This document shows positions 1,844-40,085 of a stretch of DNA of 64,000 nt, piece after piece. Each line of letters starts with the position of its first letter. Positions within the stretch are counted from its first letter, which is position 1. The position numbers were made by a program, and so were the translations under genes. The stretch is from the NCBI GenBank assembly GCA_022710645.1, contig JAKLGL010000001.1, positions 20,614-84,613 of the forward strand, in the 5' to 3' direction. The stretch comes from Patescibacteria group bacterium. GTDB taxonomy: Bacteria > Patescibacteriota > Patescibacteriia > Magasanikbacterales > GWA2-37-8. Below the pieces are notes generated by a model, which saw nothing but the letters and a program-made list of their open reading frames with translations, did not search any database and was not told the origin of the DNA.

Positions 1844-3307
1844 ATGTTTGAACAATCATTAAAAAATATAGACGATATTCTTCACCAAGATTCTGGTTGT
1901 GCTACTGAACTTGATTATATTGAACAAACCTCATGGATTTTATTTTTGAAATATTTGGATGATTTGGAAAAAGATAGAGAAACCTCGGCAAAATTGGCAG
2001 GTAAAAAATATGAATATATTATTGACCCTCAATATCGTTGGGAAAAATGGGCGATGCCAAAAAATAAAGATGGCAAAATTGATCACAACACTGCTTTGTC
2101 AGGGGATGATTTGAAAGATTTTGTTAATGGTAAATTATTTCCTTATCTTAAAAAATTTAGAGCAGATGCATCAAGTCCGGATACGATTGAATATAAAATT
2201 GGGGAAATTTTTAGTGAATTAAAAAATAGAATAGAGAGCGGTCACAGACTTCGTGAAATTTTGGAAATAGTGGACGCGCTACATTTTCGTACTGATGCGG
2301 AAAAACACGAACTTTCTCATCTTTATGAAAGCAAAATTGCCAAAATGGGCAATGCTGGACGTAATGGTGGGGAATATTACACTCCAAGACCGCTTATTCG
2401 CACGATTGTAAAAATTGTCGCGCCGAAAATTGGAGAGAAAATTTACGACGGAGCATGTGGCAGCGCCGGCTTTTTGGTGGAAGCTTTTGATTATCTCAAA
2501 TCTGAAAATAAAGATCGTTCTACAAAAAATGATGAAATTTTGCAAAAGAAAACTTTTTACGGCAAAGAAATAAAATCCCTGGCTTATATCATCGGCACAA
2601 TGAATATGATCTTGCATGGCATTGAAGCGCCAAACATCACTCATACCAATACCTTGGCGCAAAATATCAATGATATTCAAGAAAAAGACAGGTTTGATGT
2701 TATCCTTGCCAATCCGCCATTTGGCGCAGGTATTGGCCGAGAAATTCAACAAAACTTTCCCATCAAAACAGGTGAGACTGCTTTTCTTTTTCTTCAACAC
2801 TTTATCAAAATTCTCAAAGCCGGTGGGCGAGCGGGTATTGTTATCAAAAATACTTTTCTTTCCAATACCGACAATGCTTCGGTTAGTTTGCGTAAACTAC
2901 TTTTAGAAAATTGTAATTTGCATACGATTTTAGATTTACCAGGTGGCGCTTTTCAAGGCGCTGGTGTAAAAACTATAGTTTTATTTTTTGAAAAAGGAAA
3001 ACCAACGAAAAATGTTTGGTATTACCAACTCAGCCTTGATCGAAATCTTGGCAAAGGTAATCCACTTAACGAAAATGACTTAGCGGAATTTGTAAAATTG
3101 CAAAAAACAAAAGCAGACAGTGAAAACTCTTGGAGTTTAGATGTGTCTAAAATTGATCAAAATACTTTTGATTTATCAGTTAAAAATCCGAATAAAAAAG
3201 AGGAAAATGTTTTGAGAGAACCGAAGGAGATTTTGGAGGAGATGGAAGAAATAGACGAGGAAAACAAAATAATATTTAAAAAAATCAAAAATTTAGTACA
3301 TGACTAA
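1844..3307 (+). CDS. hsdM: type I restriction-modification system, DNA methyltransferase subunit M
   Basis: HsdM-like N-terminal domain. The N6-adenine methyltransferase motif NPPFG is present, as is an AdoMet-binding DGACGSAGFL motif. Confidence 0.9.
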   Translation: MFEQSLKNIDDILHQDSGCATELDYIEQTSWILFLKYLDDLEKDRETSAKLAGKKYEYIIDPQYRWEKWAMPKNKDGKIDHNTALSGDDLKDFVNGKLFPYLKKFRADASSPDTIEYKIGEIFSELKNRIESGHRLREILEIVDALHFRTDAEKHELSHLYESKIAKMGNAGRNGGEYYTPRPLIRTIVKIVAPKIGEKIYDGACGSAGFLVEAFDYLKSENKDRSTKNDEILQKKTFYGKEIKSLAYIIGTMNMILHGIEAPNITHTNTLAQNINDIQEKDRFDVILANPPFGAGIGREIQQNFPIKTGETAFLFLQHFIKILKAGGRAGIVIKNTFLSNTDNASVSLRKLLLENCNLHTILDLPGGAFQGAGVKTIVLFFEKGKPTKNVWYYQLSLDRNLGKGNPLNENDLAEFVKLQKTKADSENSWSLDVSKIDQNTFDLSVKNPNKKEENVLREPKEILEEMEEIDEENKIIFKKIKNLVHD

Positions 3308-4802
3308 TGCTGATATTAAAATTTATTTTTCTGATTTTTTTGAAGTAGATCATAATAAATTAGAAAGTTATGGCGCTCTTGATATCTCGTTATTGTCAGA
3401 TAATCCAGCTTTTATTGACCCATTTTTAATATTTTATAGTAAAAATAAAGATTATCAACAATTACACCAATCTATTGTCAATTATTTAATCTTTTTAAAA
3501 AAACAAAGTGACGAAGGTAATTTTTCTAATTTATTTTATACATTTCCAGAAGTAAATGAAGTTTGGCTTGGTTTTTCAAAAAGTGGTAATAAAGGACTCG
3601 GTTTAGGACCATATTTTGCTAATGAATTAAATGAAAATCTAATCAATATTTTTAAGGGTAATAAAAATAAAATTACAAAAAGTACACACATTGAAAAACT
3701 TTGTATTATTGGAGAGCGAATTGGAGCGGATAAAATAAGTGATTTTACACTAAATTTGATAAAACATTATTTAGTAAAGTATACTGAAAAATTTGCCATT
3801 GAAAATTTAGACAATAAATACATTTCAAAATTTAGAATATCAAAATTATTTTTTGATTTCGAAAAAAGTAATTGGGTTGATGGTGAAGCTGTCCTTCCAA
3901 TAAATCCGCATGATAAGTCGAACTATGTTTTATTAACACCAAAAGATATTCTAGTGAAAGAGGAAGGGTGGATTTCAGTTAATGATTTTTTAAATAATGA
4001 CGGTTTAATTATAAGTAATATTTCAAATGATGATTTGCGTTATAAAATAAACCAATACTTTCTTTCTTTGATTCCTGATAAGCGTAATAGAAATGGTAAA
4101 CCTGAAAAAGACTTATCGAAGAAAAATACGAGAAATGCAATGAAAGAAACGGCAAAGAAATATCCCGAATTAATCGATTATTTTATTAAATGTAAAGAAG
4201 AAAACGGGCAGGGTGCGGTTGAAGCTAGTTTAGTTGATAATGACTTTTTGAAACAAGTGTTCTATCTTGGTATTAAAGCTATTACTAAAAATTTAAAAAT
4301 TGAAGGTTTTTATAAAACAAATATAAAAGACAATTCATTTTTAGAAACAATAGATAAAATTAAAAAATTTAAGTATGTAATGGAAAAAAGAGATGGGTAT
4401 ACTGTATTTTGGGATGATAAAAAATTAAGAAAATTTAAAGAGCCAGATGTAGACAAAATGATTGATTTAGTTTTCGCTTCTTCTGATTTTTCCATAGATA
4501 AACAAGTTAATAACGGAAGAGGCTCGTCGGATATTAAGGTTTCAAAAGGATCCGCTGATTGTACTATTATAGAAACAAAACTTGCAAAAAACCCTCAATT
4601 AGAAAATAATTTACAAAAACAGTTAAATATTTATAAAGAAGCAAATAATACAACAAATGGTGTTTATGTAATTTTATATTTTAATGAAGATGAATTTAAA
4701 AAGGTGCAAAAAATATTCAAAAAATTAGGAATAGATGATTGTGTTGACAAATGGATATTTTTAATTGATTGTAGAAAGAAAATATCCGCCTCAAAGGCTT
4801 AA
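3300..4802 (+). CDS. uncharacterised 500-aa protein embedded between hsdM and hsdS, with a C-terminal PD-(D/E)xK-like motif (putative nuclease-fold defence protein)
   Basis: It overlaps the hsdM stop by 8 bp, which suggests translational coupling. The C-terminus has '...EPDVDKMIDLVF...(about 30 aa)...CTIIETKLA', a D...ExK pattern. There is no Walker A. Confidence 0.55.
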   Translation: MTNADIKIYFSDFFEVDHNKLESYGALDISLLSDNPAFIDPFLIFYSKNKDYQQLHQSIVNYLIFLKKQSDEGNFSNLFYTFPEVNEVWLGFSKSGNKGLGLGPYFANELNENLINIFKGNKNKITKSTHIEKLCIIGERIGADKISDFTLNLIKHYLVKYTEKFAIENLDNKYISKFRISKLFFDFEKSNWVDGEAVLPINPHDKSNYVLLTPKDILVKEEGWISVNDFLNNDGLIISNISNDDLRYKINQYFLSLIPDKRNRNGKPEKDLSKKNTRNAMKETAKKYPELIDYFIKCKEENGQGAVEASLVDNDFLKQVFYLGIKAITKNLKIEGFYKTNIKDNSFLETIDKIKKFKYVMEKRDGYTVFWDDKKLRKFKEPDVDKMIDLVFASSDFSIDKQVNNGRGSSDIKVSKGSADCTIIETKLAKNPQLENNLQKQLNIYKEANNTTNGVYVILYFNEDEFKKVQKIFKKLGIDDCVDKWIFLIDCRKKISASKA

Positions 4803-4809
4803 TATTTTT

Positions 4810-5922
4810 ATGAAAAATATTATTACTGATAAAAATAATTGGCAAACAAAAAAACTTGGTGAACTTTGCGATATTACAACTGGCAATTCAAATACAGTCG
4901 ATGCTGTCAGTGATGGTCAATATGCTTTTTTTGATCGATCGAAAATAATTAAAAGGAGTCATAATTTTTTGTTTGATTCGGAAGCGTTGATTATTCCAGG
5001 AGAAGGTGCTGAATTTTTCCCTAGATATTATTCAGGAAAATTTAATTTACACCAAAGAGCTTATGCTTTGTTAAATTTTAATAAAAATACAAATGTTAAA
5101 TTTGTAGAATATTTTTTAATTTTTGAACACAAATATTTTGAAAGGGTTGCAGTTGGAGCTACTGCAAAGTCTTTAAGAAGAAGACATTTTGAAGATTTAG
5201 AAATTCCGCTTCCACCCCTCCCCGAACAACATCGCATCGTAAAAATTTTAGATGAAGTTTTTGAAAATATTACGGAAGCGAAAGAAAACGCTGAAAAAAA
5301 TCTTCAAAATTCAAAAGATCTTTTTGAATCGTATTTACAGAATGTATTTGCGAAAAAGGGGAATGGTTGGGAGGAAAAGACTTTAGGCGAGGTGTGTAGA
5401 TATGATAAAACACCATATAAAAAAAGTAATTTACCCTATGTTGGACTTGAAGATATAGAATCAAATTCAGGTAAATTTTTAGGTTCTTTGGATTCAAAAA
5501 AAGTAAAAAGTAATACTTTTCATTTTACACCAGAACATGTTTTATATGGCCGTTTAAGACCTTATTTAAATAAAGTGTTACTTCCAGATTTTGAAGGTCA
5601 TTGTTCAACAGAGATTTTTCCTATAAAGCCCAGCAAAGATTTATATAGAGGGTTTTTATTTTTTTGGCTTATTTCTAAAAAAATAGTTAAAAAAATAAAT
5701 GCCACTTGGACTGGAGCTCGAATGCCTAGGGCAAACATGAATGAAGTATTAGATTTTATAATCCCAATACCATCAATATCCGAACAAAAATCCATCGTTG
5801 CCAAACTTGACGCGCTTTCGGAACAAACTAAAAAACTGGAAGAAATTTATAAACAAAAATTAGCGGATTTGGAGGAATTAAAAAAGTCGGTGTTGAAAAA
5901 GGCTTTTAGCGGGGAATTATGA
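4810..5922 (+). CDS. hsdS: type I restriction-modification system, specificity subunit S
   Basis: Two target-recognition-domain halves separated by the conserved central 'LPPLPEQHRIVKILDEVF' helix, with a C-terminal 'LEELKKSVLKKAFSGEL'. The start was chosen at MKNIITD; the ORF track's 4765 start overlaps the preceding gene. Confidence 0.85.
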   Translation: MKNIITDKNNWQTKKLGELCDITTGNSNTVDAVSDGQYAFFDRSKIIKRSHNFLFDSEALIIPGEGAEFFPRYYSGKFNLHQRAYALLNFNKNTNVKFVEYFLIFEHKYFERVAVGATAKSLRRRHFEDLEIPLPPLPEQHRIVKILDEVFENITEAKENAEKNLQNSKDLFESYLQNVFAKKGNGWEEKTLGEVCRYDKTPYKKSNLPYVGLEDIESNSGKFLGSLDSKKVKSNTFHFTPEHVLYGRLRPYLNKVLLPDFEGHCSTEIFPIKPSKDLYRGFLFFWLISKKIVKKINATWTGARMPRANMNEVLDFIIPIPSISEQKSIVAKLDALSEQTKKLEEIYKQKLADLEELKKSVLKKAFSGEL

Positions 5923-6473
5923 AAGCCAGTGAATATCAAAATCAAATCGCAGAACTTTTAAAACAAATTTTTCCGGCTGAATTGGTAAAAAAGGAATGGG
6001 ATTCGTCTGTGACTTTTAATGACTTGTCTCATAATAAAATGGTTTATGCTCCACGTATAGATGTTGCAATTGGCCCGTTTAATAATCGTTTTAATTTAGA
6101 TGTTGGAGAAATGCCGAGCGATTTGATGAAAAAACATCCTTTTACTAGAATGATGTTTGAAAGGCATTATAATGATATAGATGATTTTGATAAGGTATGG
6201 AATAGTTTTTCTCGTTGTTATTTAGCGATCGAAGTGGAGTTTAGTGGTTCAGCAAAACATATTTTTGGTAGCATAATTAATGCAGTTACAAATGGATCTT
6301 TAGCTTTTATTATTACAAATAAAGAAAATTACAGTAAAGTAGATCGAATTATTAAGTATATTTGGCGACAAGAAAATCAAGAGGTAATAGAATTAAATAC
6401 TTTGAAAAATTTATTGGTATTTGAGGAAGGGGAATTTTTGGAAGTATTGAGGGAATATTTAAAAAAAGTATAA
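5919..6473 (+). CDS. hypothetical protein translationally coupled to hsdS (ATGA overlap), with a possible restriction-endonuclease-like fold
   Basis: 184-aa ORF whose start overlaps the hsdS stop by 4 bp. It has 'YAPRIDVAIGP' and 'LAIEVEFSGSAKH' acidic motifs. The fold assignment is speculative. Confidence 0.5.
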   Translation: MKASEYQNQIAELLKQIFPAELVKKEWDSSVTFNDLSHNKMVYAPRIDVAIGPFNNRFNLDVGEMPSDLMKKHPFTRMMFERHYNDIDDFDKVWNSFSRCYLAIEVEFSGSAKHIFGSIINAVTNGSLAFIITNKENYSKVDRIIKYIWRQENQEVIELNTLKNLLVFEEGEFLEVLREYLKKV

Positions 6474-6557
6474 AATAGGTATAACTAGACTTATTTAAGA
6501 AATTTTATACAAGAGAATTGTAAACAATTTATCTATAATTAGCCAAAAAAAGCAGTA

Positions 6558-6617
6558 TTGACATTACTTATATAATGTAATATACTAGTAATATAACATA
6601 CTAGTATAATCTAATAT
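6558..6617 (+). promoter_or_regulatory. Promoter region (TTGACA-17-TATACT, with a second TATAAT at 6605-6610) carrying two copies of the 8-bp palindrome TACTAGTA
   Basis: TTGACA at 6558-6563. The palindromes are in 'tatactagtaatataacatactagtataat'. The ATG at 6618 has no RBS and sits about 7 nt after the TATAAT, so the mRNA may be leaderless. Confidence 0.45.
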
Positions 6618-8051
6618 ATGAATCAAGAATTAATACAATATTTACAAAAACAAATAAGAACAGTTGAAGATAGGTTATATAAATATACTCACAATACCCA
6701 AGGAGGTAAATTACCTCAACGTTTTTTGTTTGTTAAAATTCAAAAATATCTCAATGATTTTTTAGGTAAAATTTCAGAAAACAGATTAATTATTATTCCT
6801 GGATTACGAGGTGTAGGTAAAACTACTTTGATGGCTCAAATTTGTAGTGATTTAATTGTAAATAAAAAAAATGTAAAAACATTATTCCTGTCATTAGATG
6901 AAGTAAAAAATCTTTTTAATGTTGGGATATCTGAAGTTATGCAAGCATATGAAGAAATTTTAGGTGAAGATTTGGAAAGTTTATCAGAAAATGTTGTTAT
7001 TTTTTTCGATGAAGTGCAAAGTGATCCAACCTGGGCAAAAGCATTGAAAATACTTCATGATAAAACATCCAAAATATTCTTTTGTTGTACAGGATCTTCA
7101 GCAGTAGTATTGCAATCAACCCCAGATATAGCTAGAGGTAGGGCTATATTTGAAAGAATGACCCCGATGTGTTTTATGGAATTTGAAATGGTTAAAGACA
7201 AAGTTTTTCCTACAAAACAATTAAAAAAAGATATATGGGATGCTGTTTATTTTTCCAAAGATGCTGTAGAGGTTTATGATAAATTATCAAAACTACAAAG
7301 TTTGGTAAATAATTATTGGAGCAAGGTGGATAGAAGAGATATGGAGAAATTTTTAGCATATGGATCTTTGCCATTTACTTTACAACTTCCAAACGAAACT
7401 ATTATTAATGATTCTATTTCTTTGTTATTGGATGGAATTATTAAAAAAGATTTACCGATGCTGAATGGTTTTGATGTTAAAACGTTATCACAAGTCAAAA
7501 GATTACTTTTTATTCTTGCTGAAAATGACACGACCAGTATCAATAAATTAGAGGAAATATTAGGTATTGATAGACTAACTATAGCGAGTTTATTGGATGC
7601 TTTAGAAAAAGCAGAATTGATTATAAAAATTTCGGCTTATGGTTCCAATATGTCGGTGGCAAAAAAACCAGCAAAATATCTTTTTATGTCTTCAGCTGTG
7701 CGTATGTCATTTTTTTCAATATCTGGAAATGAAAATACTTTTTCTACAAGAAAAGGAAAGCTCTTGGAAGATTCTGTAGGTACACATTTATATAGAGAAT
7801 TTATACTTAAAAATGATGGCGCTTTACGATATGATAGTTCGCAGAATGGCGCAGATTTTATTTTGCAAATTGCTAATAAAAAACAGATAATAATTGAAGT
7901 TGGTTTGGGTAAAAAAGACAGAAAACAAATTTTAAATAGCATGGAAAGAATTGATTCAGATTATGGCATAGTTTTTTCAAGTAATCCTTTAGTTATTGAT
8001 CAAGATAAAAAAATAGTCAATGTACCTTTGGATTATTATTTTTTAATGTAA
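6618..8051 (+). CDS. AAA+ ATPase of the AAA_14/DUF4143 (COG1373-like) type, embedded in the type I R-M locus
   Basis: Walker A 'GLRGVGKTTL' and Walker B 'VIFFDEVQ'. The C-terminal region 'NGADFILQ...IIIEVGLGKK' resembles the DUF4143 nuclease-like module. Confidence 0.7.
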   Translation: MNQELIQYLQKQIRTVEDRLYKYTHNTQGGKLPQRFLFVKIQKYLNDFLGKISENRLIIIPGLRGVGKTTLMAQICSDLIVNKKNVKTLFLSLDEVKNLFNVGISEVMQAYEEILGEDLESLSENVVIFFDEVQSDPTWAKALKILHDKTSKIFFCCTGSSAVVLQSTPDIARGRAIFERMTPMCFMEFEMVKDKVFPTKQLKKDIWDAVYFSKDAVEVYDKLSKLQSLVNNYWSKVDRRDMEKFLAYGSLPFTLQLPNETIINDSISLLLDGIIKKDLPMLNGFDVKTLSQVKRLLFILAENDTTSINKLEEILGIDRLTIASLLDALEKAELIIKISAYGSNMSVAKKPAKYLFMSSAVRMSFFSISGNENTFSTRKGKLLEDSVGTHLYREFILKNDGALRYDSSQNGADFILQIANKKQIIIEVGLGKKDRKQILNSMERIDSDYGIVFSSNPLVIDQDKKIVNVPLDYYFLM

Positions 8052-8055
8052 TCGT

Positions 8056-10395
8056 ATGAATGAATCAGAAACACGAGCTGAACTCATTGATCCCAAACTG
8101 AAAGCTAGTGGTTGGGGAGAAATAGAGGGCTCAAAAATTTTACGTGAATTTCGAATTACTGATGGACGTATTCAAACAGGTGGCACACGCACAAAGCCGG
8201 AAATAGCCGACTATATTTTGGTTTATAAAAATCAAAAGCTTGCGGTGATTGAAGCAAAAAAAGAAAGTTTGTCGGCTAGCGAGGGTGTAGCTCAAGCTAA
8301 AACTTATGCGGAAAAATTACAGATTGATTTTACTTATTCCACCAATGGCAAAGCAATTTACGAAATTTCAATGAAAACAGGTAAAGAAGGATTAGTGCGA
8401 GATTTTCCGACCCCCGACGAATTATGGAATAGAGTAAATGCAAAATCAAATGAATGGAAAGAAAAATTTGCAACTGTGCCAAACGAGGGAGATTATGGTA
8501 GTCGTTATTATCAAGAGATTGCGATAAACAATGTTTTGAATGCTGTGGCTGAAGGTAAAAATAGAATTCTTTTGACTATGGCAACTGGTACGGGTAAAAC
8601 CGCGGTAGCTTTTCAAATTGCTTGGAAACTTTTTCAAACGCGTTGGAATTTACAAAGAAATGGCGAACGCCGACCGAGAATTTTGTTTTTAGCTGATAGA
8701 AATATTTTGGCCGACCAAGCTTACAATGCTTTTTCTGCTTTTAAAGAAGACGCGCTTGTTCGAATTAATCCACTTGATATTCGTAAAAAGGGCAAAGTGC
8801 CAACTGGTGGAAGTATCTTTTTTACAATTTTTCAAACTTTCATGAGTGGTCCGAATAATACTTCATATTATGGAGATTATCCAGCGGACTTTTTTGATTT
8901 TATTATTATTGATGAGTGCCATCGTGGTGGAGCAAATGACGAAAGTAATTGGCGAGGAATTATGGAATATTTTGCTCCAGCAGTTCAACTTGGTTTAACC
9001 GCTACCCCACAAAGACGAGACAACGTTGATACCTATAGATATTTTGGGGAACCAGTTTATATTTATTCCCTCAAAGAAGGCGTAAACGATGGATTTTTAA
9101 CCCCGTTTAAAGTAAAAAGAATCAAAACTACCTTAGATGACTATGTTTATACGGTAGAAGATCAGATTGTGGAAGGGGAAGTTGAAGAAGGAAAAATTTA
9201 TGAAGAAGAAGATTTTAATAGAATTATAGAAATTCAAGAAAGAGAAGCAAAACGTGTAAAAATCATGTTTAGTGAAATAAATCAAAATGAAAAAACCATT
9301 GTGTTTTGTGCTACTCAAAGTCATGCTGCGGCTGTTCGCGATTTGATCAACCAATTGAAAGAAAATAAAGATCCAAATTATTGCGCTCGTGTAACAGCCA
9401 ATGATGGCGCGCGAGGAGATCAATTTTTACGTGATTTTCAAGATAATGAAAAAACTATTCCAACAATTTTGACCACTTCGCAAAAACTCTCAACTGGTGT
9501 GGATGCTCGCAATGTTCGCAATATTGTGTTGATGCGACCGGTAAATTCCATGATTGAATTTAAACAAATTATTGGACGCGGAACTCGTCTTTTTGATGGA
9601 AAAGAATTTTTTACTATTTTGGATTTTGTAGATGCTTATAAAAATTTTTCTGATCCAGCTTGGGACGGAGATCCTGTAGAAGTGATTGAAGAAAAACCTA
9701 CTAAAAAGAAGGTTGATAAAATAAAAGAGCCCAAAGCAAAATACGAACCGATTAGCGAAGAAGGAGAAGGCGAAGAACCAAAAAAGAAATTGGTTATTAA
9801 ATTAAGAAATGGAAAAGAACATGAAATTCAACACATGGTCTCAACTTCTTTTTGGAGTGCAGATGGCAAACCAATCACTTTGCAAGAATTATTAAATAGT
9901 ATGTATGAAAAATTGCCAGAATTTTTCAAAAATGAAGACGATTTACGTAGAATTTGGTCTAACCCTATTACTCGTAAAGCATTATTAGAAAAAATAGCTG
10001 ATGCAGGATATGGAAGAGAAGAATTGGAAACATTGCAAAAAATGATTGATGCAGAAAATAGCGATTTATTTGATGTTTTGTCTTTCTTTTTATATTCAGT
10101 TAAACCGATCACTAGAGAACAAAGAGTGGAAAAATCAAAGAAAACCATTTTTGATAAATTAGACAATGAACAAAAAGAATTTTTAGAATTTGTTTTGCAA
10201 AAATATATTGATAATGGCGTGGAAGAGTTGGAAGAAGAAAAATTACCTTTGTTGTTGAATTTAAAATATCATGCGATTGCCGATGCTATTAATCAGCTTG
10301 GTGATGTGGATAAAATTCGTTCGGTATTTTTTAGTTTCCAAAAGGAACTATATACTAAAGAAAAAATTAGTAATTTGTTTAGATGTTTTATTTAA
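8056..10395 (+). CDS. hsdR: type I restriction enzyme, R subunit (EcoEI-like short form)
   Basis: N-terminal 'ETRAELIDPKLKASGWG' HsdR_N motif. SF2 helicase motifs 'MATGTGKT' and the DECH box 'IIDECHRGG'. The C-terminal domain is EcoEI-R-like. Confidence 0.9.
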   Translation: MNESETRAELIDPKLKASGWGEIEGSKILREFRITDGRIQTGGTRTKPEIADYILVYKNQKLAVIEAKKESLSASEGVAQAKTYAEKLQIDFTYSTNGKAIYEISMKTGKEGLVRDFPTPDELWNRVNAKSNEWKEKFATVPNEGDYGSRYYQEIAINNVLNAVAEGKNRILLTMATGTGKTAVAFQIAWKLFQTRWNLQRNGERRPRILFLADRNILADQAYNAFSAFKEDALVRINPLDIRKKGKVPTGGSIFFTIFQTFMSGPNNTSYYGDYPADFFDFIIIDECHRGGANDESNWRGIMEYFAPAVQLGLTATPQRRDNVDTYRYFGEPVYIYSLKEGVNDGFLTPFKVKRIKTTLDDYVYTVEDQIVEGEVEEGKIYEEEDFNRIIEIQEREAKRVKIMFSEINQNEKTIVFCATQSHAAAVRDLINQLKENKDPNYCARVTANDGARGDQFLRDFQDNEKTIPTILTTSQKLSTGVDARNVRNIVLMRPVNSMIEFKQIIGRGTRLFDGKEFFTILDFVDAYKNFSDPAWDGDPVEVIEEKPTKKKVDKIKEPKAKYEPISEEGEGEEPKKKLVIKLRNGKEHEIQHMVSTSFWSADGKPITLQELLNSMYEKLPEFFKNEDDLRRIWSNPITRKALLEKIADAGYGREELETLQKMIDAENSDLFDVLSFFLYSVKPITREQRVEKSKKTIFDKLDNEQKEFLEFVLQKYIDNGVEELEEEKLPLLLNLKYHAIADAINQLGDVDKIRSVFFSFQKELYTKEKISNLFRCFI

Positions 10396-34929: not shown

Positions 34930-36186
34930 ATGTTAGACATTAAATTCATTCGCGAAAATAAAGAATTGGTAAAACAAAATTGTCTTGACCGTCGTGCCAA
35001 AGCCGATATTGATTTGGTTTTATCTCTTGACGAAGCAAGAAAAAATTTATTGAAACAAGCGGAGGAATTACGCGGTTTACGCAACGCAAAATCCAAAGGC
35101 AAACCTACGGATGAAGAAATCGCGAAAATGCGCGAGGTGGGGGATAATATCGCAAAAATTGAAAAAGAATTAGGAGAAGTGGAAAAAAGATATTTGGAAG
35201 AAATGATGAAAATTCCCAATTTGACTCATCCGGAATCTCCGATTGGTGAAGAAGCTGATTTCAAAATAGTTTATAAAAATTTCGAACCGAAAGATTTTTC
35301 TTTCAAACCGCTTGATCACGAAGAATTGATGATCAAAAATGATTTGATAGATTTTGAAAGAGCCACCAAAACCAGCGGGGCTAAATTTTATTTTTTAAAA
35401 AATAATCTGGTTCGCCTGAATCAAGCGTTATTGAATTATGGTATGGATATTGCCGTGAAACACAGCTTTGTTTTATTGGAAACCCCGGACATGGCCAAAA
35501 ATGAAATTTTGCAAGGTATAGGTTTCAATCCGAGAAGCGGGGAAGAAACTCAGATTTATTCCATAGAAAATTCTGATTTGAGTTTGATAGGCACGGCGGA
35601 AATTACCGTCGGAGGATATCATTCCAACGAAATTTTGGATTTGAAAGACGGACCGAAAAAATACATCGCTTTATCTCATTGTTTTCGCACCGAGGCCGGA
35701 GCTTATGGTAAAACCAGCAAAGGACTTTATCGCGTTCATCAATTCACCAAATTGGAAATGTTTGTCTTTTGTAAACCGGAAGACAGTGAAAAATATCATG
35801 CAGAAATTTTGAAAGTAGAAAAAGAAATTATGGACGGATTGGAAATTCCGTATCAAGTCATAGATATTGCCAGTGCCGATTTGGGCGGTCCCGCTTATCG
35901 CAAATTTGATATAGAAGGGTATATGATTATGAAAGGCGACGATAAACATCAAGGTGGTTATGGAGAACTGACATCTTGTTCCAACTGTACCGATTATCAA
36001 GCCAGACGATTGAATATCAAATATAAAAAAGATGACGGTTCCAACGCCTTTGTACACACGTTAAACGGCACTGCCGTAGTACTAAGTCGTTTTCCGATAG
36101 TTATAGCGGAAAATCATCAACAAGCGGACGGAACTATAGAAGTGCCGAAAGCTCTCCAAAAATATTGCGGATTCAAAAAAATATAA
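34930..36186 (+). CDS. serS: seryl-tRNA synthetase
   Basis: N-terminal coiled-coil arm 'MLDIKFIREN' and class II catalytic motifs ('FRTEAG', 'TLNGTAVV.SR'). Confidence 0.9.
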   Translation: MLDIKFIRENKELVKQNCLDRRAKADIDLVLSLDEARKNLLKQAEELRGLRNAKSKGKPTDEEIAKMREVGDNIAKIEKELGEVEKRYLEEMMKIPNLTHPESPIGEEADFKIVYKNFEPKDFSFKPLDHEELMIKNDLIDFERATKTSGAKFYFLKNNLVRLNQALLNYGMDIAVKHSFVLLETPDMAKNEILQGIGFNPRSGEETQIYSIENSDLSLIGTAEITVGGYHSNEILDLKDGPKKYIALSHCFRTEAGAYGKTSKGLYRVHQFTKLEMFVFCKPEDSEKYHAEILKVEKEIMDGLEIPYQVIDIASADLGGPAYRKFDIEGYMIMKGDDKHQGGYGELTSCSNCTDYQARRLNIKYKKDDGSNAFVHTLNGTAVVLSRFPIVIAENHQQADGTIEVPKALQKYCGFKKI

Positions 36187-36189
36187 TTT

Positions 36190-37251
36190 ATGACTTCGGG
36201 AGGAAAAAGACCGTATCTTGATTTTAAAAAATACAGATACGACGAAGAAAAACGTCCGATTTTTTCTTTTCCCAAAAAACCGGCGATTAAACAAATCAAA
36301 AGTTTTGAAGCTGCGACCCCCGTCGAATCGGTTAATTTTATCGTTGGTAACAATCCTTTTCGCAAAGAGCCGAAAAAAAAGATTAATTATAAAAAGTTTT
36401 TCTTCGGTTTTTTCATTTTTTTCTTTTTAGCCGCGTGGTTTTGGCTTATTTTTTATTTACCTTATTTTGATATTGAAAATATTTATTATTCAGGCATAAA
36501 AACAACGAATGAGGCGACTTTAAAAACCTATGTCTACGACAATTTCATCAAATCCGGTAAATATTGGCATAGAAATAATTATTTTGTCACTGACGCGGAA
36601 GAGATCGTTATAGGTATAAAAAATAATTTTGATTTAAGCGATGTCAAAGTGACCAAGATTTTTCCCGATAAATTACAGATTGATGTGATAGAGAAGAGTC
36701 ACAGTATGGTTTTGTGCACGCAACGAGGTTATTATCTACTAGACAGCGATGGTGGTGTAATAAAGATTTTTTGGGAAAAAGAATTTACTAGCACAAGTAT
36801 TTTTACCACAGGAACCGTTCAAAATGAAGTTAACGGACCGACATCAACCACATCGAGCATGCCGGTAGCTGAAGAAATATTCAAACCGACAAGACAAAAA
36901 ATAGATAAAGAATATCAAAATTTACCACTGTTTTGCATTGACGAAGAAAAAAAACTATCTTTAGTCAATAAAAATGTCGTTTCCGAAGCTTTTCTCAAAA
37001 ACATCATTGATTGGCATGAAGCTTTAATCAAGGAGGGGATAGGATCTCCGGAATATTTTCTGGGACAGCTCAATCAATGGACCGGCTTTGAAGCTTATTT
37101 CAAAGATAAGAAATGGCATTTAAAATTATCTCCGGAAAATATCCAATCGCAAATTATAAAAATCAAAGCTGTTATTGAAAGTAAAGAAAGCATATCTCAA
37201 ATCAAAGAATATATAGATGTTCGCTTTGGAGATAGAGTGACTTGGAAGTAA
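36190..37251 (+). CDS. FtsQ/DivIB-like (POTRA-domain) membrane-anchored protein
   Basis: Single N-terminal TM, followed by a POTRA-like 'YWHRNNYFVTDAEEIVIGIKNNFDLSDVKVTKIFPDKLQIDVIEKSHSMVL'. Confidence 0.45.
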   Translation: MTSGGKRPYLDFKKYRYDEEKRPIFSFPKKPAIKQIKSFEAATPVESVNFIVGNNPFRKEPKKKINYKKFFFGFFIFFFLAAWFWLIFYLPYFDIENIYYSGIKTTNEATLKTYVYDNFIKSGKYWHRNNYFVTDAEEIVIGIKNNFDLSDVKVTKIFPDKLQIDVIEKSHSMVLCTQRGYYLLDSDGGVIKIFWEKEFTSTSIFTTGTVQNEVNGPTSTTSSMPVAEEIFKPTRQKIDKEYQNLPLFCIDEEKKLSLVNKNVVSEAFLKNIIDWHEALIKEGIGSPEYFLGQLNQWTGFEAYFKDKKWHLKLSPENIQSQIIKIKAVIESKESISQIKEYIDVRFGDRVTWK

Positions 37252-37335
37252 GAGAAGCGGTGATTTGCAAGATTTTAAACAATGTGAAATAATATACCTA
37301 ACTTCGTATAACAGAGGATAACCGAAGTAAAGACT

Positions 37336-38307
37336 ATGCAAAAATCAAATACATCGCTAATAAAGCATATCCCAACCTTTTTGGAATACTGTGAGGTAGA
37401 AAAAGGTCTTTCTCCCGTATCCTCCAAAAACTATCACAATTTTTTAAAAGTTTTTATTGAATGGCTTGATAAATCCAAATTAAACAATCTCTTACCACAC
37501 GAATTGACACCTGAACATATTTGGAGTTACCGCCTCTTTTTATCTCGTAAACAGGACTACAAGGGCGCCTATCTCAAAAAGACTTCTCAGAGCTATTATC
37601 TTCGAGCTTTACGAAATTTCCTGAAATATCTGACAGACAAAGACATTGTCACATTACCGTCGGAAAAAATAAAATTACCAAAATTGACTGATAAAGACAA
37701 ACAAATTAAATTTTTGAGTTTTGATCAGGTAGAAAAACTACTATCCATGCCAGACACTTCAAATACCGAAGGGTTACGCGATAGAACCATCCTTGAAGTA
37801 CTCTTCTCCACTGGTATGCGTGTCTCAGAGCTTACTTCGCTTAACCTAAAACAGTTTAATGTTAATGATTTAATAGCTGGAAAAATTCCAGATTTTACCG
37901 AACTTAATATTATAGGTAAAGGCGGTAAGATGCGCACGGTTTATTTTTCCAAAAGATCCCTGGAATGGTTGGCTAAATATCTCAAAGAACGCAAAGATAT
38001 GCTCCCTCCCCTGTTTATCAATTACTTCAAAGCTGCCAAAGACGAGGATGCCAGACGTTTATCACCCAGATCGGTTGAAAGTATCGTGCGTAAATATACG
38101 ATGATGGCCGGATTGCCGGTAGAAGCCACACCACATACTCTGAGACACAGTTTTGCCACTGATTTACTCTCCCACGGCGCTGATTTACGTTCAGTCCAGG
38201 AACTCTTGGGTCATAGCAATGTTGCCACTACTCAAATCTATACTCACGTAACCAACGCCGGATTAAAAAATGTTTATAAAAGCTTTCATAGTGGAGCGAA
38301 GAAATAA
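37336..38307 (+). CDS. xerD: tyrosine site-specific recombinase XerC/XerD
   Basis: Catalytic residues in context 'TPHTLRHSFATDLLSHGADLRSVQELLGHSNVATTQIYTHV'. Core-binding N-domain present. Confidence 0.85.
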   Translation: MQKSNTSLIKHIPTFLEYCEVEKGLSPVSSKNYHNFLKVFIEWLDKSKLNNLLPHELTPEHIWSYRLFLSRKQDYKGAYLKKTSQSYYLRALRNFLKYLTDKDIVTLPSEKIKLPKLTDKDKQIKFLSFDQVEKLLSMPDTSNTEGLRDRTILEVLFSTGMRVSELTSLNLKQFNVNDLIAGKIPDFTELNIIGKGGKMRTVYFSKRSLEWLAKYLKERKDMLPPLFINYFKAAKDEDARRLSPRSVESIVRKYTMMAGLPVEATPHTLRHSFATDLLSHGADLRSVQELLGHSNVATTQIYTHVTNAGLKNVYKSFHSGAKK

Positions 38308-38309
38308 AT

Positions 38310-38795
38310 ATGAAATTTCTGTCCGATCAAGAAGAAAAACAAGCACTGGATTATATTGAAAAAGCGGCTAAAATAGCTCTCTATTCAACCTGTGAACGTG
38401 CTCGTTGCGGTTGTGTAATAATAAAAGACAATAAAATCATCGGCGAAGGATTCAATAATCCGCCCCAAAATAAAATTGAACAAAAAAGATGTTCTATTTC
38501 TAAAGATACTTACCATAAAAAGGTTACGGATAAAACTTGTTGCGTCCACGCTGAACAACGAGCAATTATGGATGCATTAAGAAATAATCCAAATGAACTG
38601 AACGGATCAAGATTGTATTTTGTTCGATTAGATAAAGACGGTAATTCTCAAAAAGCCGGCAAACCTTATTGTACTATTTGCAGTAAAATGGCGTTGGATG
38701 TTGGAGTAGTTGAATTTGTTTTATGGCATGACCAGGGTGTATGCGTTTATAATACCGATGAATACAATCTTCTTTCGTATCAATACCAAGATTAA
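38310..38795 (+). CDS. dCMP/cytidine deaminase family zinc enzyme
   Basis: 'CVHAEQRAIMDAL' (H-A-E) and 'PYCTICSKMA' (PCxxC) zinc motifs. Confidence 0.75.
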   Translation: MKFLSDQEEKQALDYIEKAAKIALYSTCERARCGCVIIKDNKIIGEGFNNPPQNKIEQKRCSISKDTYHKKVTDKTCCVHAEQRAIMDALRNNPNELNGSRLYFVRLDKDGNSQKAGKPYCTICSKMALDVGVVEFVLWHDQGVCVYNTDEYNLLSYQYQD

Positions 38796-38849
38796 TTGAA
38801 AGACTAATAAAAACGCCCTGATAAAACAGGGTGTTTTTTTATTTATATT

Positions 38850-40085
38850 TTAATCTTTCAAATATCCCGTAGGATCTACCGGGATGCCGCTTTTACGAAC
38901 TTCAAAGTGCAAATGAGGGCCGGTGGTGAAAGGTCCGGCGCCAACAGTGCCAGGTTTACCGCCGGAATAACCTATGATATCACCCCTGTTTACAAAATCA
39001 TCTTCATTAACGGAAATAGAGCTTAGATGACCGTATACAGTAGATAAGTTTCCGGTATGAATAAGTAAAACATAACTATAACAAGATGAAGAGGTGCATC
39101 TTTTGGTGCGCCCGACATATCCCGCAGTTGCGGCGCGAACCGCTGTTCCTTGAGAAGCGCGGATATCTATAGCATTATGTTCAAAAACATTTCTGAAAGA
39201 ATAGGTAGAATCATGAAAAGACGCGGTAATATAATGCGAAGGAACTGGCCAACTTAATTCTCCGGATCCGCTCAAATTTTTGAATTTTTCCTGTTCAGCA
39301 AGTTTTTTGCGCACCTGTTCTTCGTAAGATCGAACTTCCCCTTCTATTACTTGATATTGTCTTTTCAAACTTTCAAGCAAAGTTTGATATTTCATTTCCG
39401 AAGCTCTGGTTTCGGCCAAAAGATCTTGTTTATCTCCGGATTGTTCTTTGAAATCAAGTTTTTTATTTTCTAAAGCAAATTTCTGTTCTTCATAAATTTT
39501 CTTTTTGGCTTCCACTTGAGATTTTTTATCAGCCAGATCTTCCGCAGTTACGCGCAAATTCTTGACCGACCTTCCTAAATCCACATAAATACTTTCAAGG
39601 TATTGGACTTGATTGTAGAAATCGGCAAAAGTATCGTTAGTAAGCAGTATTTCCAAATAATTTTTCTGATCATTGGCGTGGATATTGCGTATAATCTGAG
39701 AAATGATGACTTTTTGTCTATCCATGGCTTTTTGTTTATCTTCAATAGACAATTGTAAAGCCTCTATCTCCAACTTGGTTTCATCGATTTTCAATTGAAT
39801 CATTTTGATTTCAGCTTCGGTTTGCTTGATTTTATTCTCCAAAATACTAAGCTGGTTTTTCAAAGATACGGCTTCGGTTTGTTTCTGACTGATATTTTTC
39901 TTATAAACACTTATGGTATCTTCCAGTTGTTTGATTTTATCTTTGCGGGCACTAATCTCTTTATTTAAAGATTCTATTTCATCCTTATTGCTGGCCAAAT
40001 TGGCGGTTTGCGAATAAACAAAAATCGGCGCCAAAAACAATGTCGCGATAAAACAAACTATAAATAATTTTAAACTTTTAGGCAT
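38850..40085 (-). CDS. M23 (LytM) peptidoglycan endopeptidase with an N-terminal coiled-coil (EnvC-like)
   Basis: Signal peptide and long heptad-repeat region. The C-terminus has 'HTGNLSTVYGHL...GPHLHFEV', the M23 HxxxD/HxH motifs. Confidence 0.8.
   Translation of the reverse strand: MPKSLKLFIVCFIATLFLAPIFVYSQTANLASNKDEIESLNKEISARKDKIKQLEDTISVYKKNISQKQTEAVSLKNQLSILENKIKQTEAEIKMIQLKIDETKLEIEALQLSIEDKQKAMDRQKVIISQIIRNIHANDQKNYLEILLTNDTFADFYNQVQYLESIYVDLGRSVKNLRVTAEDLADKKSQVEAKKKIYEEQKFALENKKLDFKEQSGDKQDLLAETRASEMKYQTLLESLKRQYQVIEGEVRSYEEQVRKKLAEQEKFKNLSGSGELSWPVPSHYITASFHDSTYSFRNVFEHNAIDIRASQGTAVRAATAGYVGRTKRCTSSSCYSYVLLIHTGNLSTVYGHLSSISVNEDDFVNRGDIIGYSGGKPGTVGAGPFTTGPHLHFEVRKSGIPVDPTGYLKD

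What the first reader, a model, noticed from the sequence alone, without database searches (positions are those of the whole stretch)
6558..8051. AAA/DUF4143 ATPase inside the R-M locus behind a promoter with twin TACTAGTA palindromes and a possible leaderless start
The intergenic region has a TTGACA -35 followed by two copies of the 8-bp perfect palindrome TACTAGTA, spaced about 13 bp apart. Each palindrome overlaps a -10-like hexamer (TATACT and TATAAT), which is an operator-like geometry. A palindrome does sit over the -10, but no controller (C) protein is evident. The ATG at 6618 has no RBS and lies about 7 nt after the TATAAT, which suggests a leaderless mRNA. COG1373-type ATPases with DUF4143 are poorly characterised. 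Placement between hsdS and hsdR suggests a role in the R-M or defence module.
Basis: partly seen in the sequence, partly recalled or inferred. Interest (0 to 1): 0.55.

Follow-up and report, generated by a model that had tools for sequence, protein, structure and literature searches.

The report
Palindromic operator on a defence-ATPase promoter
The two small palindromes are real: they are the arms of a conserved inverted repeat around the start of a strong promoter for a candidate anti-phage ATPase-nuclease (PDC-S01) in a type I restriction locus, most likely a repressor site bound by the gene's own product, not evidence of a leaderless mRNA.

Summary
The two TACTAGTA copies (6583-6590, 6599-6606) are 16 bp start-to-start, with an 8-bp gap, not about 13.

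The gene (6618-8051) is a Patescibacteria clade of the PADLOC candidate PDC-S01. It has an AAA_14 ATPase, an Orc1/Cdc6-like winged helix and a DUF4143 PD-(D/E)xK domain. Its ATG is confirmed by an N-terminus conserved in over 100 homologues.

In 48 orthologous loci the upstream region is positionally conserved:
- TTGACA, a 17-bp spacer and TATACT form a near-consensus promoter.
- One 10-bp motif occurs in alternating orientation: in the spacer, over the -10, just after the predicted start site (about 6593), and degenerately over the ATG.
- These two arms change in concert between loci (C:G in 18 loci, G:C in 18).

Paralogues in the same genome, or the same locus, keep this layout with unrelated motifs, and no partner gene is conserved. 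I therefore read it as an autoregulatory operator.

In this window the promoter probably also drives hsdR, which starts 4 nt after the ATPase stop.

A leaderless start is not favoured. Shine-Dalgarno sites are rare genome-wide, and the TATAAT is only partly conserved. Nothing here has been tested experimentally.

The parts
6618..8051 (+). PDC-S01-type gene (477 aa). AAA_14 ATPase at aa 55-189, with Walker A PGLRGVGKTT at aa 61-70 and Walker B DE at aa 131-132. Winged helix at about aa 287-356. DUF4143 / PD-(D/E)xK-like domain at about aa 372-477, with invariant E384, D385, D413, E427 and K433.
   Evidence: Pfam. PADLOC. More than 1100 homologues, the listed 120 mostly full-length. Alignment A1. 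AF2 model with pLDDT 85.6. Foldseek top hits Orc1/Cdc6, ORC, CED-4, RFC and DnaA.
6558..6586 (+). Promoter P1: -35 TTGACA (6558-6563), 17-bp spacer, -10 TATACT (6581-6586). The predicted start site is about A6593.
   Evidence: 11/12 match, the best in the region. Among 48 orthologues the -35 matches TTGACN in 40, the -10 is TATACT in 44, and the spacer is always 17 bp. The start site is inferred, not mapped.
6565..6574 (+). Site 1 (forward copy of the 10-bp motif, TACTTATATA, degenerate) in the promoter spacer.
   Evidence: Inverted repeat I5 and direct repeat D1. Alignment columns 18-27 of A2.
6581..6590 (+). Site 2 (reverse copy, TATACTAGTA).
6599..6608 (+). Site 3 (forward copy, TACTAGTATA). 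It lies at about +7 to +16 of the P1 transcript.
   Evidence: The pair of alignment columns 41 and 54 is C:G in 18 loci and G:C in 18.
6615..6624 (+). Site 4 (reverse copy, degenerate, TATATGAATC) overlapping the start codon. With site 3 it repeats the block from site 1 to the -10 as a 20-nt direct repeat (6565-6584 and 6599-6618, 85% identical).
   Evidence: Direct repeat D1 and the 21-nt inverted-repeat arms I1. L010, L014 and L050 have 20-23-nt direct repeats of the same kind.
6510..6551 (+). Conserved 5' part of the control region. CAAGAGAA (6510-6517) marks where similarity between loci begins. AGCCAAAAAAA (6541-6551) is an A-tract at about -52 to -42, resembling an UP element.
   Evidence: The UP-element reading is an inference.
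6474..6500 (+). AAAATAGGTATAACTAGACTTATTTAA, a small inverted-repeat element. It is also present upstream of the cassette in L024, L026, L032, L042, L081 and L082. Its function is unknown.
8056..10395 (+). hsdR (EcoEI-type). It starts 4 nt after the ATPase stop, with no promoter or terminator between, so it is probably co-transcribed from P1.
   Evidence: Pfam and PADLOC. Promoter and terminator scan. The same junction occurs in L081, L086, L021 and L026, with decayed remnants in L032 and L009.
1844..6473 (+). The rest of the type I locus: hsdM (1844-3307), an embedded 500-aa gene (3300-4802, resembling the N-terminus of PDC-M36A), hsdS (4765-5922) and an embedded 184-aa gene (5919-6473, no family).

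Best explanation
The 144-bp gap (6474-6617) is the self-contained control region of a single-gene PDC-S01 cassette.

A near-consensus sigma-70 promoter (TTGACA, 17 bp, TATACT; predicted start about 6593) is embedded in a roughly 60-bp nested palindrome. The palindrome is built from four copies of one 10-bp motif in forward, reverse, forward, reverse order. The two TACTAGTA 'palindromes' are the cores of copies 2 and 3. These are the arms of an inverted repeat centred on the predicted start site and covering the -10 and about +7 to +16.

I propose that this is a DNA operator at which a repressor occludes the promoter. The most likely repressor is the gene's own product, acting through its Orc1/Cdc6-like winged-helix domain. 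This negative autoregulation would hold a potentially toxic ATPase-nuclease at a low level. In this locus it would also set the level of hsdR, which follows 4 nt after the stop codon.

The P1 mRNA would carry a 25-nt AU-rich, unstructured leader without a Shine-Dalgarno site, which is normal for this genome.

Shown: the sequence features, their conservation, the concerted changes in the arms, the domain architecture and the absence of a partner gene. Inferred: the start site, repression, and the identity of the binding protein.
For: 1. Promoter and motif array are conserved in 48 loci from many Patescibacteria lineages whose proteins are 57-81% identical. The -35 matches TTGACN in 40 of 48, the spacer is always 17 bp, and the -10 is TATACT in 44 of 48.

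2. The invariant C in TATACT is not what sigma-70 prefers. It is explained by the GTATA/TATAC repeat.

3. The arms of the repeat between sites 2 and 3 are 85.6% paired, against 19-55% when the partner columns are slid. One position is C:G in 18 loci and G:C in 18. A second, independent swap occurs in L083, whose protein is 81% identical to the window's.

4. Evidence for constraint at the DNA level rather than the RNA level:
- Site 1 lies in the untranscribed spacer.
- The predicted start site lies between the arms.
- Among 58 non-Watson-Crick cells, only 5 are G.U on the + strand, against 17 A.C.

5. The layout is the same but the motif is private to each paralogue:
- The clade 45% identical to the window's protein uses TTACTATATCA.
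- L053, from the same MAG as L001, uses TGGTATAATT/AAATATACCA over its -10.
- L086 carries, about 4 kb from its hsdS-ATPase-hsdR, an ordinary 373-aa PDC-S01 paralogue. Its promoter is TTGACT, 17 bp, TATATT, with TAGTAACCTAAATA, TATTTAGGTCATTA and TATTAACCTAAATA in the same positions.

6. No neighbouring gene is conserved across 80 loci, so the only factor that travels with the sites is the ATPase itself.

7. The protein has a winged helix:
- MarR hit over aa 295-336, E 4e-5.
- The AF2 model shows three helices followed by a beta hairpin.
- The fold resembles Orc1/Cdc6 bound to origin DNA (2qby) and DnaA.

8. The start of the recognition helix is (D/N)RLTI in all loci whose motif has the TAGTATA core and SRITI in L053 (GGTATA core). 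It is SVNTI in the TTACTATATCA clade and NKVTV in the L086 paralogue.
Against: - There is no experimental start site and no binding data.
- Half-site centres are 16-18 bp apart, which is unusual for a simple winged-helix dimer.
- Site 1 does not follow the swap at column pair 41:54. At the matching site 1-site 2 pair (columns 20:41), only 3 of the roughly 20 loci with C at column 41 have the matching G. L083 combines an ACTAGT-type site 1 with CTACAA/TTGTAG in sites 2 and 3.
- Five loci carry mismatched G/G intermediates.
- Residues that correlate with operator class are spread over the whole protein and track phylogeny. Three loci have one operator class with the other class's protein signature.
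- Concerted changes in DNA palindromes can also arise by template-switch mutation, without selection.
- The link between helix and motif rests on only four motif classes.
Confidence: 0.5

Rival explanations
1. First reader's model. The TATAAT at 6605-6610 is the working -10, and transcription starts at or next to the A of the ATG (6618). This gives a leaderless mRNA, with the palindromes acting as operators on that promoter.
For: There are 7 nt between TATAAT and ATG in the window. No Shine-Dalgarno site is present. Other genes in the window have TATAAT 6 nt before their ATG (30320 +, and 40085 - with TGTTATAAT), so leaderless starts may exist in this genome.
Against: - No -35 or TGn element serves this hexamer. 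The bases 17 bp upstream read ATACTA.
- The hexamer is TATAAT in only 16 of 48 orthologues and has C at its critical last position in 12 of 48.
- Its distance to the ATG is 9 nt in most loci and about 21 nt in L038 and L040.
- The clade 45% identical to the window's protein has a leader of about 45 nt.
- Lack of a Shine-Dalgarno site is the rule in this genome.
- A far better conserved promoter lies 24 bp upstream.
Confidence: 0.12
2. RNA-level device. In transcripts that read through from upstream genes, sites 2 and 3 pair, and sites 1 and 4 pair, forming a nested hairpin. The hairpin buries the AUG, so only P1-initiated mRNA is translated. Alternatively the hairpin acts as a processing or stability element.
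For: The whole region folds into the nested hairpin in the window, L010 and L024, at about -13 kcal/mol with z-scores of -1.8 to -3.0. The P1 transcript from 6593 is unstructured (-1.5 kcal/mol). The arms covary.
Against: - The conserved promoter starts transcription inside the loop.
- There is no excess of G.U pairs on the + strand (5 of 58 non-Watson-Crick cells).
- In many loci the copy in the spacer abuts site 2 with a 1-nt gap, which cannot form a hairpin.
- The region has no Rfam match.
- The stem is AU-rich, with only two G-C pairs.
Confidence: 0.12
3. The sites are bound by a separate trans-acting regulator. This could be a host global repressor or a small regulator linked to restriction-modification, of the C-protein or RptR kind, encoded elsewhere.
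For: Palindromes over the -10 of type I restriction-modification defence islands are bound by the 79-aa repressor RptR in Gammaproteobacteria (PMC12255303). C proteins control type II restriction genes in a similar way.
Against: - No small ORF fits in the intergenic gaps of the locus.
- No neighbour is conserved across 80 loci.
- Paralogues in one genome, or one locus, carry unrelated motifs, which a single host factor would not explain.
- The sites are not TAGCTA.
- By my own recollection, C-boxes read GACT-N3-AGTC, and these sites do not.
Confidence: 0.1
4. No regulatory function. The array is a by-product of a tandem duplication of the promoter segment, followed by homogenisation of a quasi-palindrome by template switching in AT-rich DNA.
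For: The blocks from site 1 to the -10 and from site 3 to the ATG are 20-23-nt direct repeats. Template switching can produce concerted changes without selection (my own knowledge).
Against: The architecture persists across clades down to 45% protein identity, and in an unrelated paralogue with a different motif. Positions are fixed relative to the -35 and -10 in 48 loci. The nearest orthologue keeps the arms exactly while the loop changes.
Confidence: 0.08

Closest known systems
PDC-S01 (PADLOC phage-defence candidate; COG1373; Pfam AAA_14 + DUF4143)
   Same: The domain content and single-gene organisation match, and the gene is embedded in a type I restriction-modification locus. The family is described as an ATPase fused to a PD-(D/E)xK domain, as the fourth most common defence candidate in prokaryotes, and as not yet validated (PMC12988326). 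The candidates were derived by 'guilt-by-embedding' (bioRxiv 10.1101/2024.01.29.577857). DUF4143 is listed among the PD-(D/E)xK families (PMC3424549).
   Different: This is a Patescibacteria clade of 473-477 aa with a conserved N-terminal extension of about 40 aa; the PADLOC profile begins to match at residue 42. The proteins are unusually similar, 57-81% identical across many lineages. A conserved promoter and operator of this kind has not, as far as I could find, been described for the family.
RptR repressor of type I restriction-modification defence islands (PMC12255303)
   Same: Short palindromic sites are repeated over the -10 of a promoter that drives a type I locus with embedded defence genes. 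The sites are conserved across genomes.
   Different: RptR is a separate 79-aa protein that binds three direct 9-bp repeats containing TAGCTA. Here there is no such gene, the motif is a 10-bp unit in alternating orientation, and the putative binder is the embedded ATPase-nuclease itself.
Controller (C) proteins of type II restriction-modification systems
   Same: Paired palindromic operators lie next to the promoter of the restriction gene. Some C-dependent transcripts are leaderless (my own knowledge). In the window the operator-bearing promoter probably also drives hsdR.
   Different: No small HTH C gene is present. No C-box consensus is present. This is a type I system. The element is also found in many loci without any restriction-modification genes.
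DnaA and archaeal Orc1/Cdc6 (AAA+ ATPases with a C-terminal DNA-binding domain that bind repeats next to their own genes)
   Same: The AF2 model's best PDB matches are Orc1/Cdc6 bound to origin DNA, ORC subunits and DnaA. Repeated, oppositely oriented sites lie immediately upstream of the gene. DnaA autoregulates its own promoter (my own knowledge).
   Different: There is no evidence of origin function. The gene carries an extra PD-(D/E)xK domain, and its context is defence.
PrrC and Rlo 'restriction-linked' genes between hsdS and hsdR
   Same: An NTPase gene sits between hsdS and hsdR of a type I locus, tightly linked to hsdR.
   Different: PrrC is an ABC-type ATPase fused to an anticodon nuclease. 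This protein is an AAA+/STAND-like ATPase with a winged helix and a PD-(D/E)xK domain. Most orthologues, about 65 of 80, are not next to restriction-modification genes.

Membership tests
PDC-S01 / COG1373 (AAA_14 + DUF4143) | AAA_14 P-loop domain above the Pfam threshold | tested here: met
   PF13173, 88.8 bits against a cut-off of 27, aa 55-189. Walker A GxxGxGKT and Walker B DE are invariant.
PDC-S01 / COG1373 (AAA_14 + DUF4143) | C-terminal DUF4143 (PD-(D/E)xK superfamily) domain | tested here: met
   PF13635, 46 bits against a cut-off of 28.1, aa 286-429. E384, D385, D413, E427 and K433 are invariant. The family is listed as PD-(D/E)xK in PMC3424549. Nuclease activity was not tested.
PDC-S01 / COG1373 (AAA_14 + DUF4143) | Match to the PADLOC PDC-S01 profiles | tested here: met
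   PDLC04787, E 2.5e-32, covering aa 42-467. Six further PDC-S01 profiles also match.
PDC-S01 / COG1373 (AAA_14 + DUF4143) | Single-gene system with no obligate partner | tested here: met
   The immediate neighbours in 80 loci share no family. The most frequent are N6_Mtase (4 loci) and DEAD (3 loci).
PDC-S01 / COG1373 (AAA_14 + DUF4143) | Protection against phage | not testable with these tools
   The literature states that validation is pending for most of the PDCs in the core defensome, the group that includes PDC-S01 (PMC12988326).
C-protein-controlled restriction-modification system | Small (about 80 aa) HTH controller gene upstream of the restriction gene | tested here: not met
   No such ORF lies in or beside the 144-bp gap, and the intergenic gaps of the locus are at most 150 bp. 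The unknown ORFs at 3300-4802 and 5919-6473 have no HTH family hit.
C-protein-controlled restriction-modification system | C-box operator (GACT-N3-AGTC pairs; consensus recalled from my own knowledge) | tested here: not met
   The sites read TATACTAGTA and TACTAGTATA. No GACT...AGTC pair is present.
RptR-type regulation | TAGCTA-type 6-bp palindromes in direct 9-bp repeats, together with an rptR gene | tested here: not met
   The promoter contains no TAGCTA, and the locus has no ORF of about 79 aa. RptR's sequence was not searched in the rest of the window.
Leaderless mRNA | -10 hexamer 6-8 nt upstream of the start codon | tested here: met
   In the window, TATAAT at 6605-6610 is followed by 7 nt and then the ATG.
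Leaderless mRNA | That -10 and its spacing are conserved in orthologues, with no better promoter upstream | tested here: not met
   The hexamer is TATAAT in 16 of 48 loci, with T at the last position in 35 of 48. The spacing is 9 nt in most loci and about 21 nt in two. An 11/12 consensus promoter, conserved in 40-44 of 48 loci, lies upstream.
Leaderless mRNA | Mapped 5' end at the start codon | not testable with these tools
   No transcript data are available.
Orc1/Cdc6-like AAA+ with winged helix | AAA+ base, lid and C-terminal winged helix in the ORC/Cdc6 arrangement | tested here: met
   Foldseek probability is 1.00 to 2qby_A/B, 8s0e_G, 7jgr_D and 1fnn_A over about 380-450 aligned columns. 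TM-scores are low (0.25-0.41) because of domain orientation. MarR hit over aa 295-336.
Orc1/Cdc6-like AAA+ with winged helix | Replication-origin function | not tested
   Nothing suggests it. The gene lies in chromosomal contexts of many kinds.

The most novel reading that the evidence does not exclude
PDC-S01 proteins are Orc1/Cdc6-like, sequence-specific DNA-binding ATPase-nucleases. Each recognises a private palindromic array laid over its own promoter. In copies embedded in type I restriction-modification loci, such as this one, the same operator-controlled promoter also drives hsdR. The ATPase would then act as a C-protein-like gatekeeper, or guard, of restriction: it would couple release from its operator (for example on infection or on entry into a new host) to a burst of both the nuclease and HsdR.
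Probability: 0.15. Interest if true: 0.7.

Novelty: new variant of a known kind. Interest (0 to 1): 0.45.

Why it matters
PDC-S01 is reported as one of the most common candidate defence genes in bacteria and archaea, yet nothing is known about how it works or how it is controlled.

This analysis gives the family a concrete handle that can be tested cheaply. There is a conserved promoter with a defined array of sites. The array's sequence differs between paralogues, while its layout and the protein's winged helix are kept.

If the protein binds these sites, three things follow:
- The DNA-binding specificity of the family becomes readable from genomes.
- Autoregulation would explain how a potentially toxic nuclease is tolerated.
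- In restriction-embedded copies, it would link the expression of HsdR to the state of the embedded gene.

It would also add to the sparse knowledge of promoters and translation starts in Patescibacteria. If the protein does not bind, the finding reduces to an ordinary, well-conserved promoter.

Tried and rejected
- **Co-variation between operator class and protein residues** (mutual information with G or C at column 41). The top positions are spread over the whole protein and follow one subclade. Three loci break the association, so the result is confounded by phylogeny and not usable.
- **Metagenome-wide scan for the dyad** TATACTASWA-N7-9-TWSTAGTATA, to see whether it marks a regulon. Of the 80 loci read, only 5 precede an ATPase homologue. 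The rest are unrelated AT-rich repeats or other families, so the scan says nothing about the host genome.
- **Search for further copies in the window.** None were found beyond the promoter.
- **Rfam search of 6300-6800.** No match.
- **Viral contigs.** No relative of the gene.
- **PDB by sequence.** Only a marginal P-loop hit.
- **Alternative start codons** (the AAGGAGG at 6700-6706 inside the ORF). Rejected: no start codon follows at a usable distance, and M1 with the first 40 residues is conserved in all full-length homologues.
- **Divergent promoter on the minus strand using the mirrored TATACT.** Rejected because there is no -35.
- **Replication-origin reading of the repeats.** Considered because of the Orc1/Cdc6 fold, but not pursued. 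The sites sit exactly on a consensus promoter, and the contexts are ordinary chromosomal loci.
- **Literature searches** for DUF4143, COG1373 and AAA_14. These gave no functional study.
Full report
**What is in the sequence**

The window comes from a Candidatus Magasanikbacteria (Patescibacteria/CPR) genome. The ATPase is 100% identical to a protein that NCBI names from that group. On the + strand the locus reads:
- hsdM, 1844-3307.
- A 500-aa gene whose N-terminus matches PADLOC PDC-M36A, 3300-4802.
- hsdS, 4765-5922.
- A 184-aa gene with no family, 5919-6473.
- A 144-bp gap.
- The ATPase, 6618-8051.
- An EcoEI-type hsdR, 8056-10395, which starts 4 nt after the ATPase stop.

- TTGACA at 6558-6563.
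- TACTAGTA at 6583-6590 and 6599-6606.
- TATACT at 6581-6586.
- TATAAT at 6605-6610.
- ATG at 6618, 7 nt after the TATAAT, with no Shine-Dalgarno sequence.

Two details need correction. The palindromes are 16 bp start-to-start (an 8-bp gap), not about 13. TTGACA is 17 bp from TATACT, which makes an 11/12 consensus promoter and the best in 5800-8300. It is 41 bp from the TATAAT.

TACTAGTA occurs nowhere else in the 64 kb, against an expected count of 0.2.

**The gene**

Pfam gives AAA_14 (E 3.8e-25) and DUF4143 (E 6.2e-12), with a near-threshold MarR hit at aa 295-336. PADLOC gives PDC-S01 (E 2.5e-32).

More than 1100 homologues were found. The best 120 are mostly 473-477 aa, are 59-100% identical, and come from many Patescibacteria lineages. 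M1 and the first 40 residues are conserved, so 6618 is the true start.

An AlphaFold2 model (pLDDT 85.6) has an AAA+ core, a helical lid and a winged helix: helices at 293-331 and a beta wing at 335-356. A C-terminal alpha/beta domain carries invariant E384, D385, D413, E427 and K433. Its best PDB matches are Orc1/Cdc6 on origin DNA, ORC subunits, CED-4, RFC and DnaA.

The literature describes PDC-S01 as an ATPase fused to a PD-(D/E)xK domain and as the fourth most common defence candidate in prokaryotes. It says experimental validation is still pending for most such candidates (PMC12988326). The candidates were found as genes embedded in BREX, DISARM and type I restriction-modification systems (bioRxiv 10.1101/2024.01.29.577857).

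**The control region in orthologues**

I fetched 80 loci from species-representative genomes and seven from the closest relatives.

In 48 loci of the close clade, the 70 nt before the ATG align almost without gaps. The -35 matches TTGACN in 40 of 48, the spacer is always 17 bp, and the -10 is TATACT in 44 of 48.

One 10-bp motif (consensus TTCTAGTATA) recurs in alternating orientation:
- Site 1 lies in the spacer (window 6565-6574).
- Site 2 is reversed and lies over the -10 (6581-6590).
- Site 3 lies just downstream of the predicted start site (6599-6608).
- Site 4 is a degenerate reversed copy over the ATG (6615-6624).

In the window this appears as 21-nt inverted-repeat arms (6570-6590 and 6599-6619) and as a 20-nt direct repeat (6565-6584 and 6599-6618). 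They look like separate palindromes only because ACTAGT is itself symmetric.

In other loci the core reads CTAGAA/TTCTAG or CTACAA/TTGTAG, and the two arms change together:
- The arms are 85.6% paired, against 19-55% when the partner columns are slid.
- One column pair is C:G in 18 loci and G:C in 18.
- Of the 48 loci, 17 have perfect 10-bp arms and 41 have two or fewer mismatches.
- The 92%-identical orthologue L081/L082 keeps both TACTAGTA copies exactly while the intervening bases differ.
- L083, 81% identical, has made the G:C to C:G swap independently.

The element is real.

**DNA or RNA?**

The conserved promoter puts the start site at about 6593, between the arms. The arms therefore cannot pair in the P1 transcript, whose 25-nt leader is unstructured (-1.5 kcal/mol).

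Site 1 lies in untranscribed spacer DNA. In many loci it abuts site 2 with a 1-nt gap, which no hairpin allows.

Among the non-Watson-Crick cells of the repeat, G.U on the + strand is not enriched: 5 cells, against 17 A.C and 36 others. The invariant C of TATACT is explained by the GTATA/TATAC repeat, not by sigma-70 preference.

A read-through transcript would fold into a nested hairpin that buries the AUG (about -13 kcal/mol, z-scores of -1.8 to -3.0). I keep that as a rival. The weight of evidence is for a DNA site.

**Who binds?**

No neighbouring gene is conserved. The immediate neighbours range from hsd genes to ribosomal proteins and tRNA synthetases.

The layout is kept while the motif changes with the paralogue:
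- The clade 45% identical to the window's protein uses TTACTATATCA.
- L053, a paralogue in the same MAG as L001, has TGGTATAATT/AAATATACCA over its -10.
- L086 carries, about 4 kb from its hsdS-ATPase-hsdR, an ordinary 373-aa PDC-S01 gene. Its promoter is TTGACT, 17 bp, TATATT, and it holds TAGTAACCTAAATA, TATTTAGGTCATTA and TATTAACCTAAATA in the same three positions.

A host factor would not change with the paralogue. The only thing that travels with each motif is the ATPase.

The start of its recognition helix is (D/N)RLTI wherever the motif has the TAGTATA core, and SRITI with the GGTATA core. It is SVNTI in the TTACTATATCA clade and NKVTV in the L086 paralogue. This is only four classes, so it is suggestive and no more.

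My best reading, at confidence 0.5, is negative autoregulation through the winged helix. This is comparable to DnaA at its own promoter (my own knowledge) and, in regulatory logic, to RptR on type I defence islands (PMC12255303).

Points against:
- Half-site centres are 16-18 bp apart.
- Site 1 often does not follow the swap (L083).
- A residue-level co-variation test was confounded by phylogeny.

**Relation to the restriction system**

About 15 of 80 loci have restriction-modification neighbours.

In homologous type I operons (HsdM about 76% identical) the cassette sits at different places. It lies right after hsdM in L017 and after hsdS in L042 and L086. It lies after an extra small gene in the window and in L081.

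The junction 'stop, 4 nt, ATG of hsdR (MNESETRAE...)' is shared by the window, L081, L086, L021 and L026. Decayed hsdR remnants follow the ATPase in L032 and L009. No promoter or terminator separates the two genes in the window. P1 therefore probably also drives hsdR here. That part is inference.

**Leaderless start**

Only about 6 of 40 long ORFs in the window have a Shine-Dalgarno-like sequence, so its absence is uninformative.

The TATAAT has no -35 or TGn element. It is exact in only 16 of 48 orthologues, has C at its last position in 12 of 48, and lies 9 nt from the ATG in most loci and about 21 nt in two. I rate a leaderless main transcript at about 0.12. Only 5'-end mapping can settle it.

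**Verdict**

- The gene is a new member of a known candidate family.
- The conserved four-site operator on its promoter, with a motif private to each paralogue, appears to be undescribed. It gives a direct experimental entry into an abundant but uncharacterised family.
- Interest: 0.45.

Noticed in passing
window 3300-4802 (+): A 500-aa gene lies between hsdM and hsdS. Its first 234 residues match the PADLOC candidate PDC-M36A (E 5e-23), and it has no Pfam hit. This is a second embedded defence candidate in the same type I locus.
   Followed up: partly
window 5919-6473 (+): A 184-aa ORF overlaps the hsdS stop by 4 nt and has no Pfam or PADLOC family. In L081 a different 171-aa gene (weak acetyltransferase hit) occupies the same slot between hsdS and the ATPase.
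   Followed up: partly
window 6474-6517; also L024, L026, L032, L042, L081, L082: Two further conserved elements lie upstream of the promoter. One is the small inverted repeat AAAATAGGTATAAYTAGACYTATTT, directly after the upstream stop codon. The other is CAAGARAA at about -110, which is exactly where similarity between otherwise unrelated loci begins. This may be the cassette's left boundary. The function of both is unknown.
   Followed up: partly
window 6703-6727 (+), inside the ATPase ORF: A terminator-like hairpin, GAGGTAAATTACCTC, is followed by AACGTTTTTT, about 85 nt into the coding region. In orthologues the stem comes mostly from the conserved Gly29 and Pro33 codons. Wobble positions pair somewhat more often than in shuffles (99 cells against 83 +/- 3.8). 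This is weak evidence and could be chance.
   Followed up: partly
window-wide; for example 30320 (+) and 40085 (-): Shine-Dalgarno-like sequences precede only about 6 of 40 long ORFs. At least two genes have TATAAT (one as TGTTATAAT) 6 nt before their ATG. These are candidates for truly leaderless mRNAs in this genome.
   Followed up: no
window about 36000-40000: GC skew changes sign from positive to negative (the cumulative skew peaks near 38 kb), and gene orientation switches from + to -.
   Followed up: no
L086 1-1072 and 11535-13411: The locus around the 78%-identical orthologue is a dense defence island. It holds AbiEi/AbiEii, a type I system with DUF3800 and two unknown embedded genes, the ATPase, hsdR, a HARE-HTH gene, a second PDC-S01 paralogue with its own three-site operator, and a PDDEXK_1 gene.
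   Followed up: partly
L090, L101, L103, L104, L125, L127, L143, L144, L146, L151, L157, L161: Twelve metagenome contigs, with GC-rich flanks, share a perfect dyad TATACTACAA-N9-TTGTAGTATA. None is next to a relative of the ATPase. This is probably an operator of some other, unidentified system.
   Followed up: no
L145 2820-2935: A copy of the cassette's promoter region (TAAGCCAAAA..., then TATACTAGAA-N8-TTGTAGTATA) has no ATPase homologue detected anywhere in the locus. It may be a remnant.
   Followed up: no
L010 and L015, upstream of the cassette: In two Peregrinibacteria loci a tRNA-like 3' end (GGTTCGATTCCC...CCA) lies 60-150 nt upstream of the promoter. This hints at insertion next to tRNA genes.
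   Followed up: no
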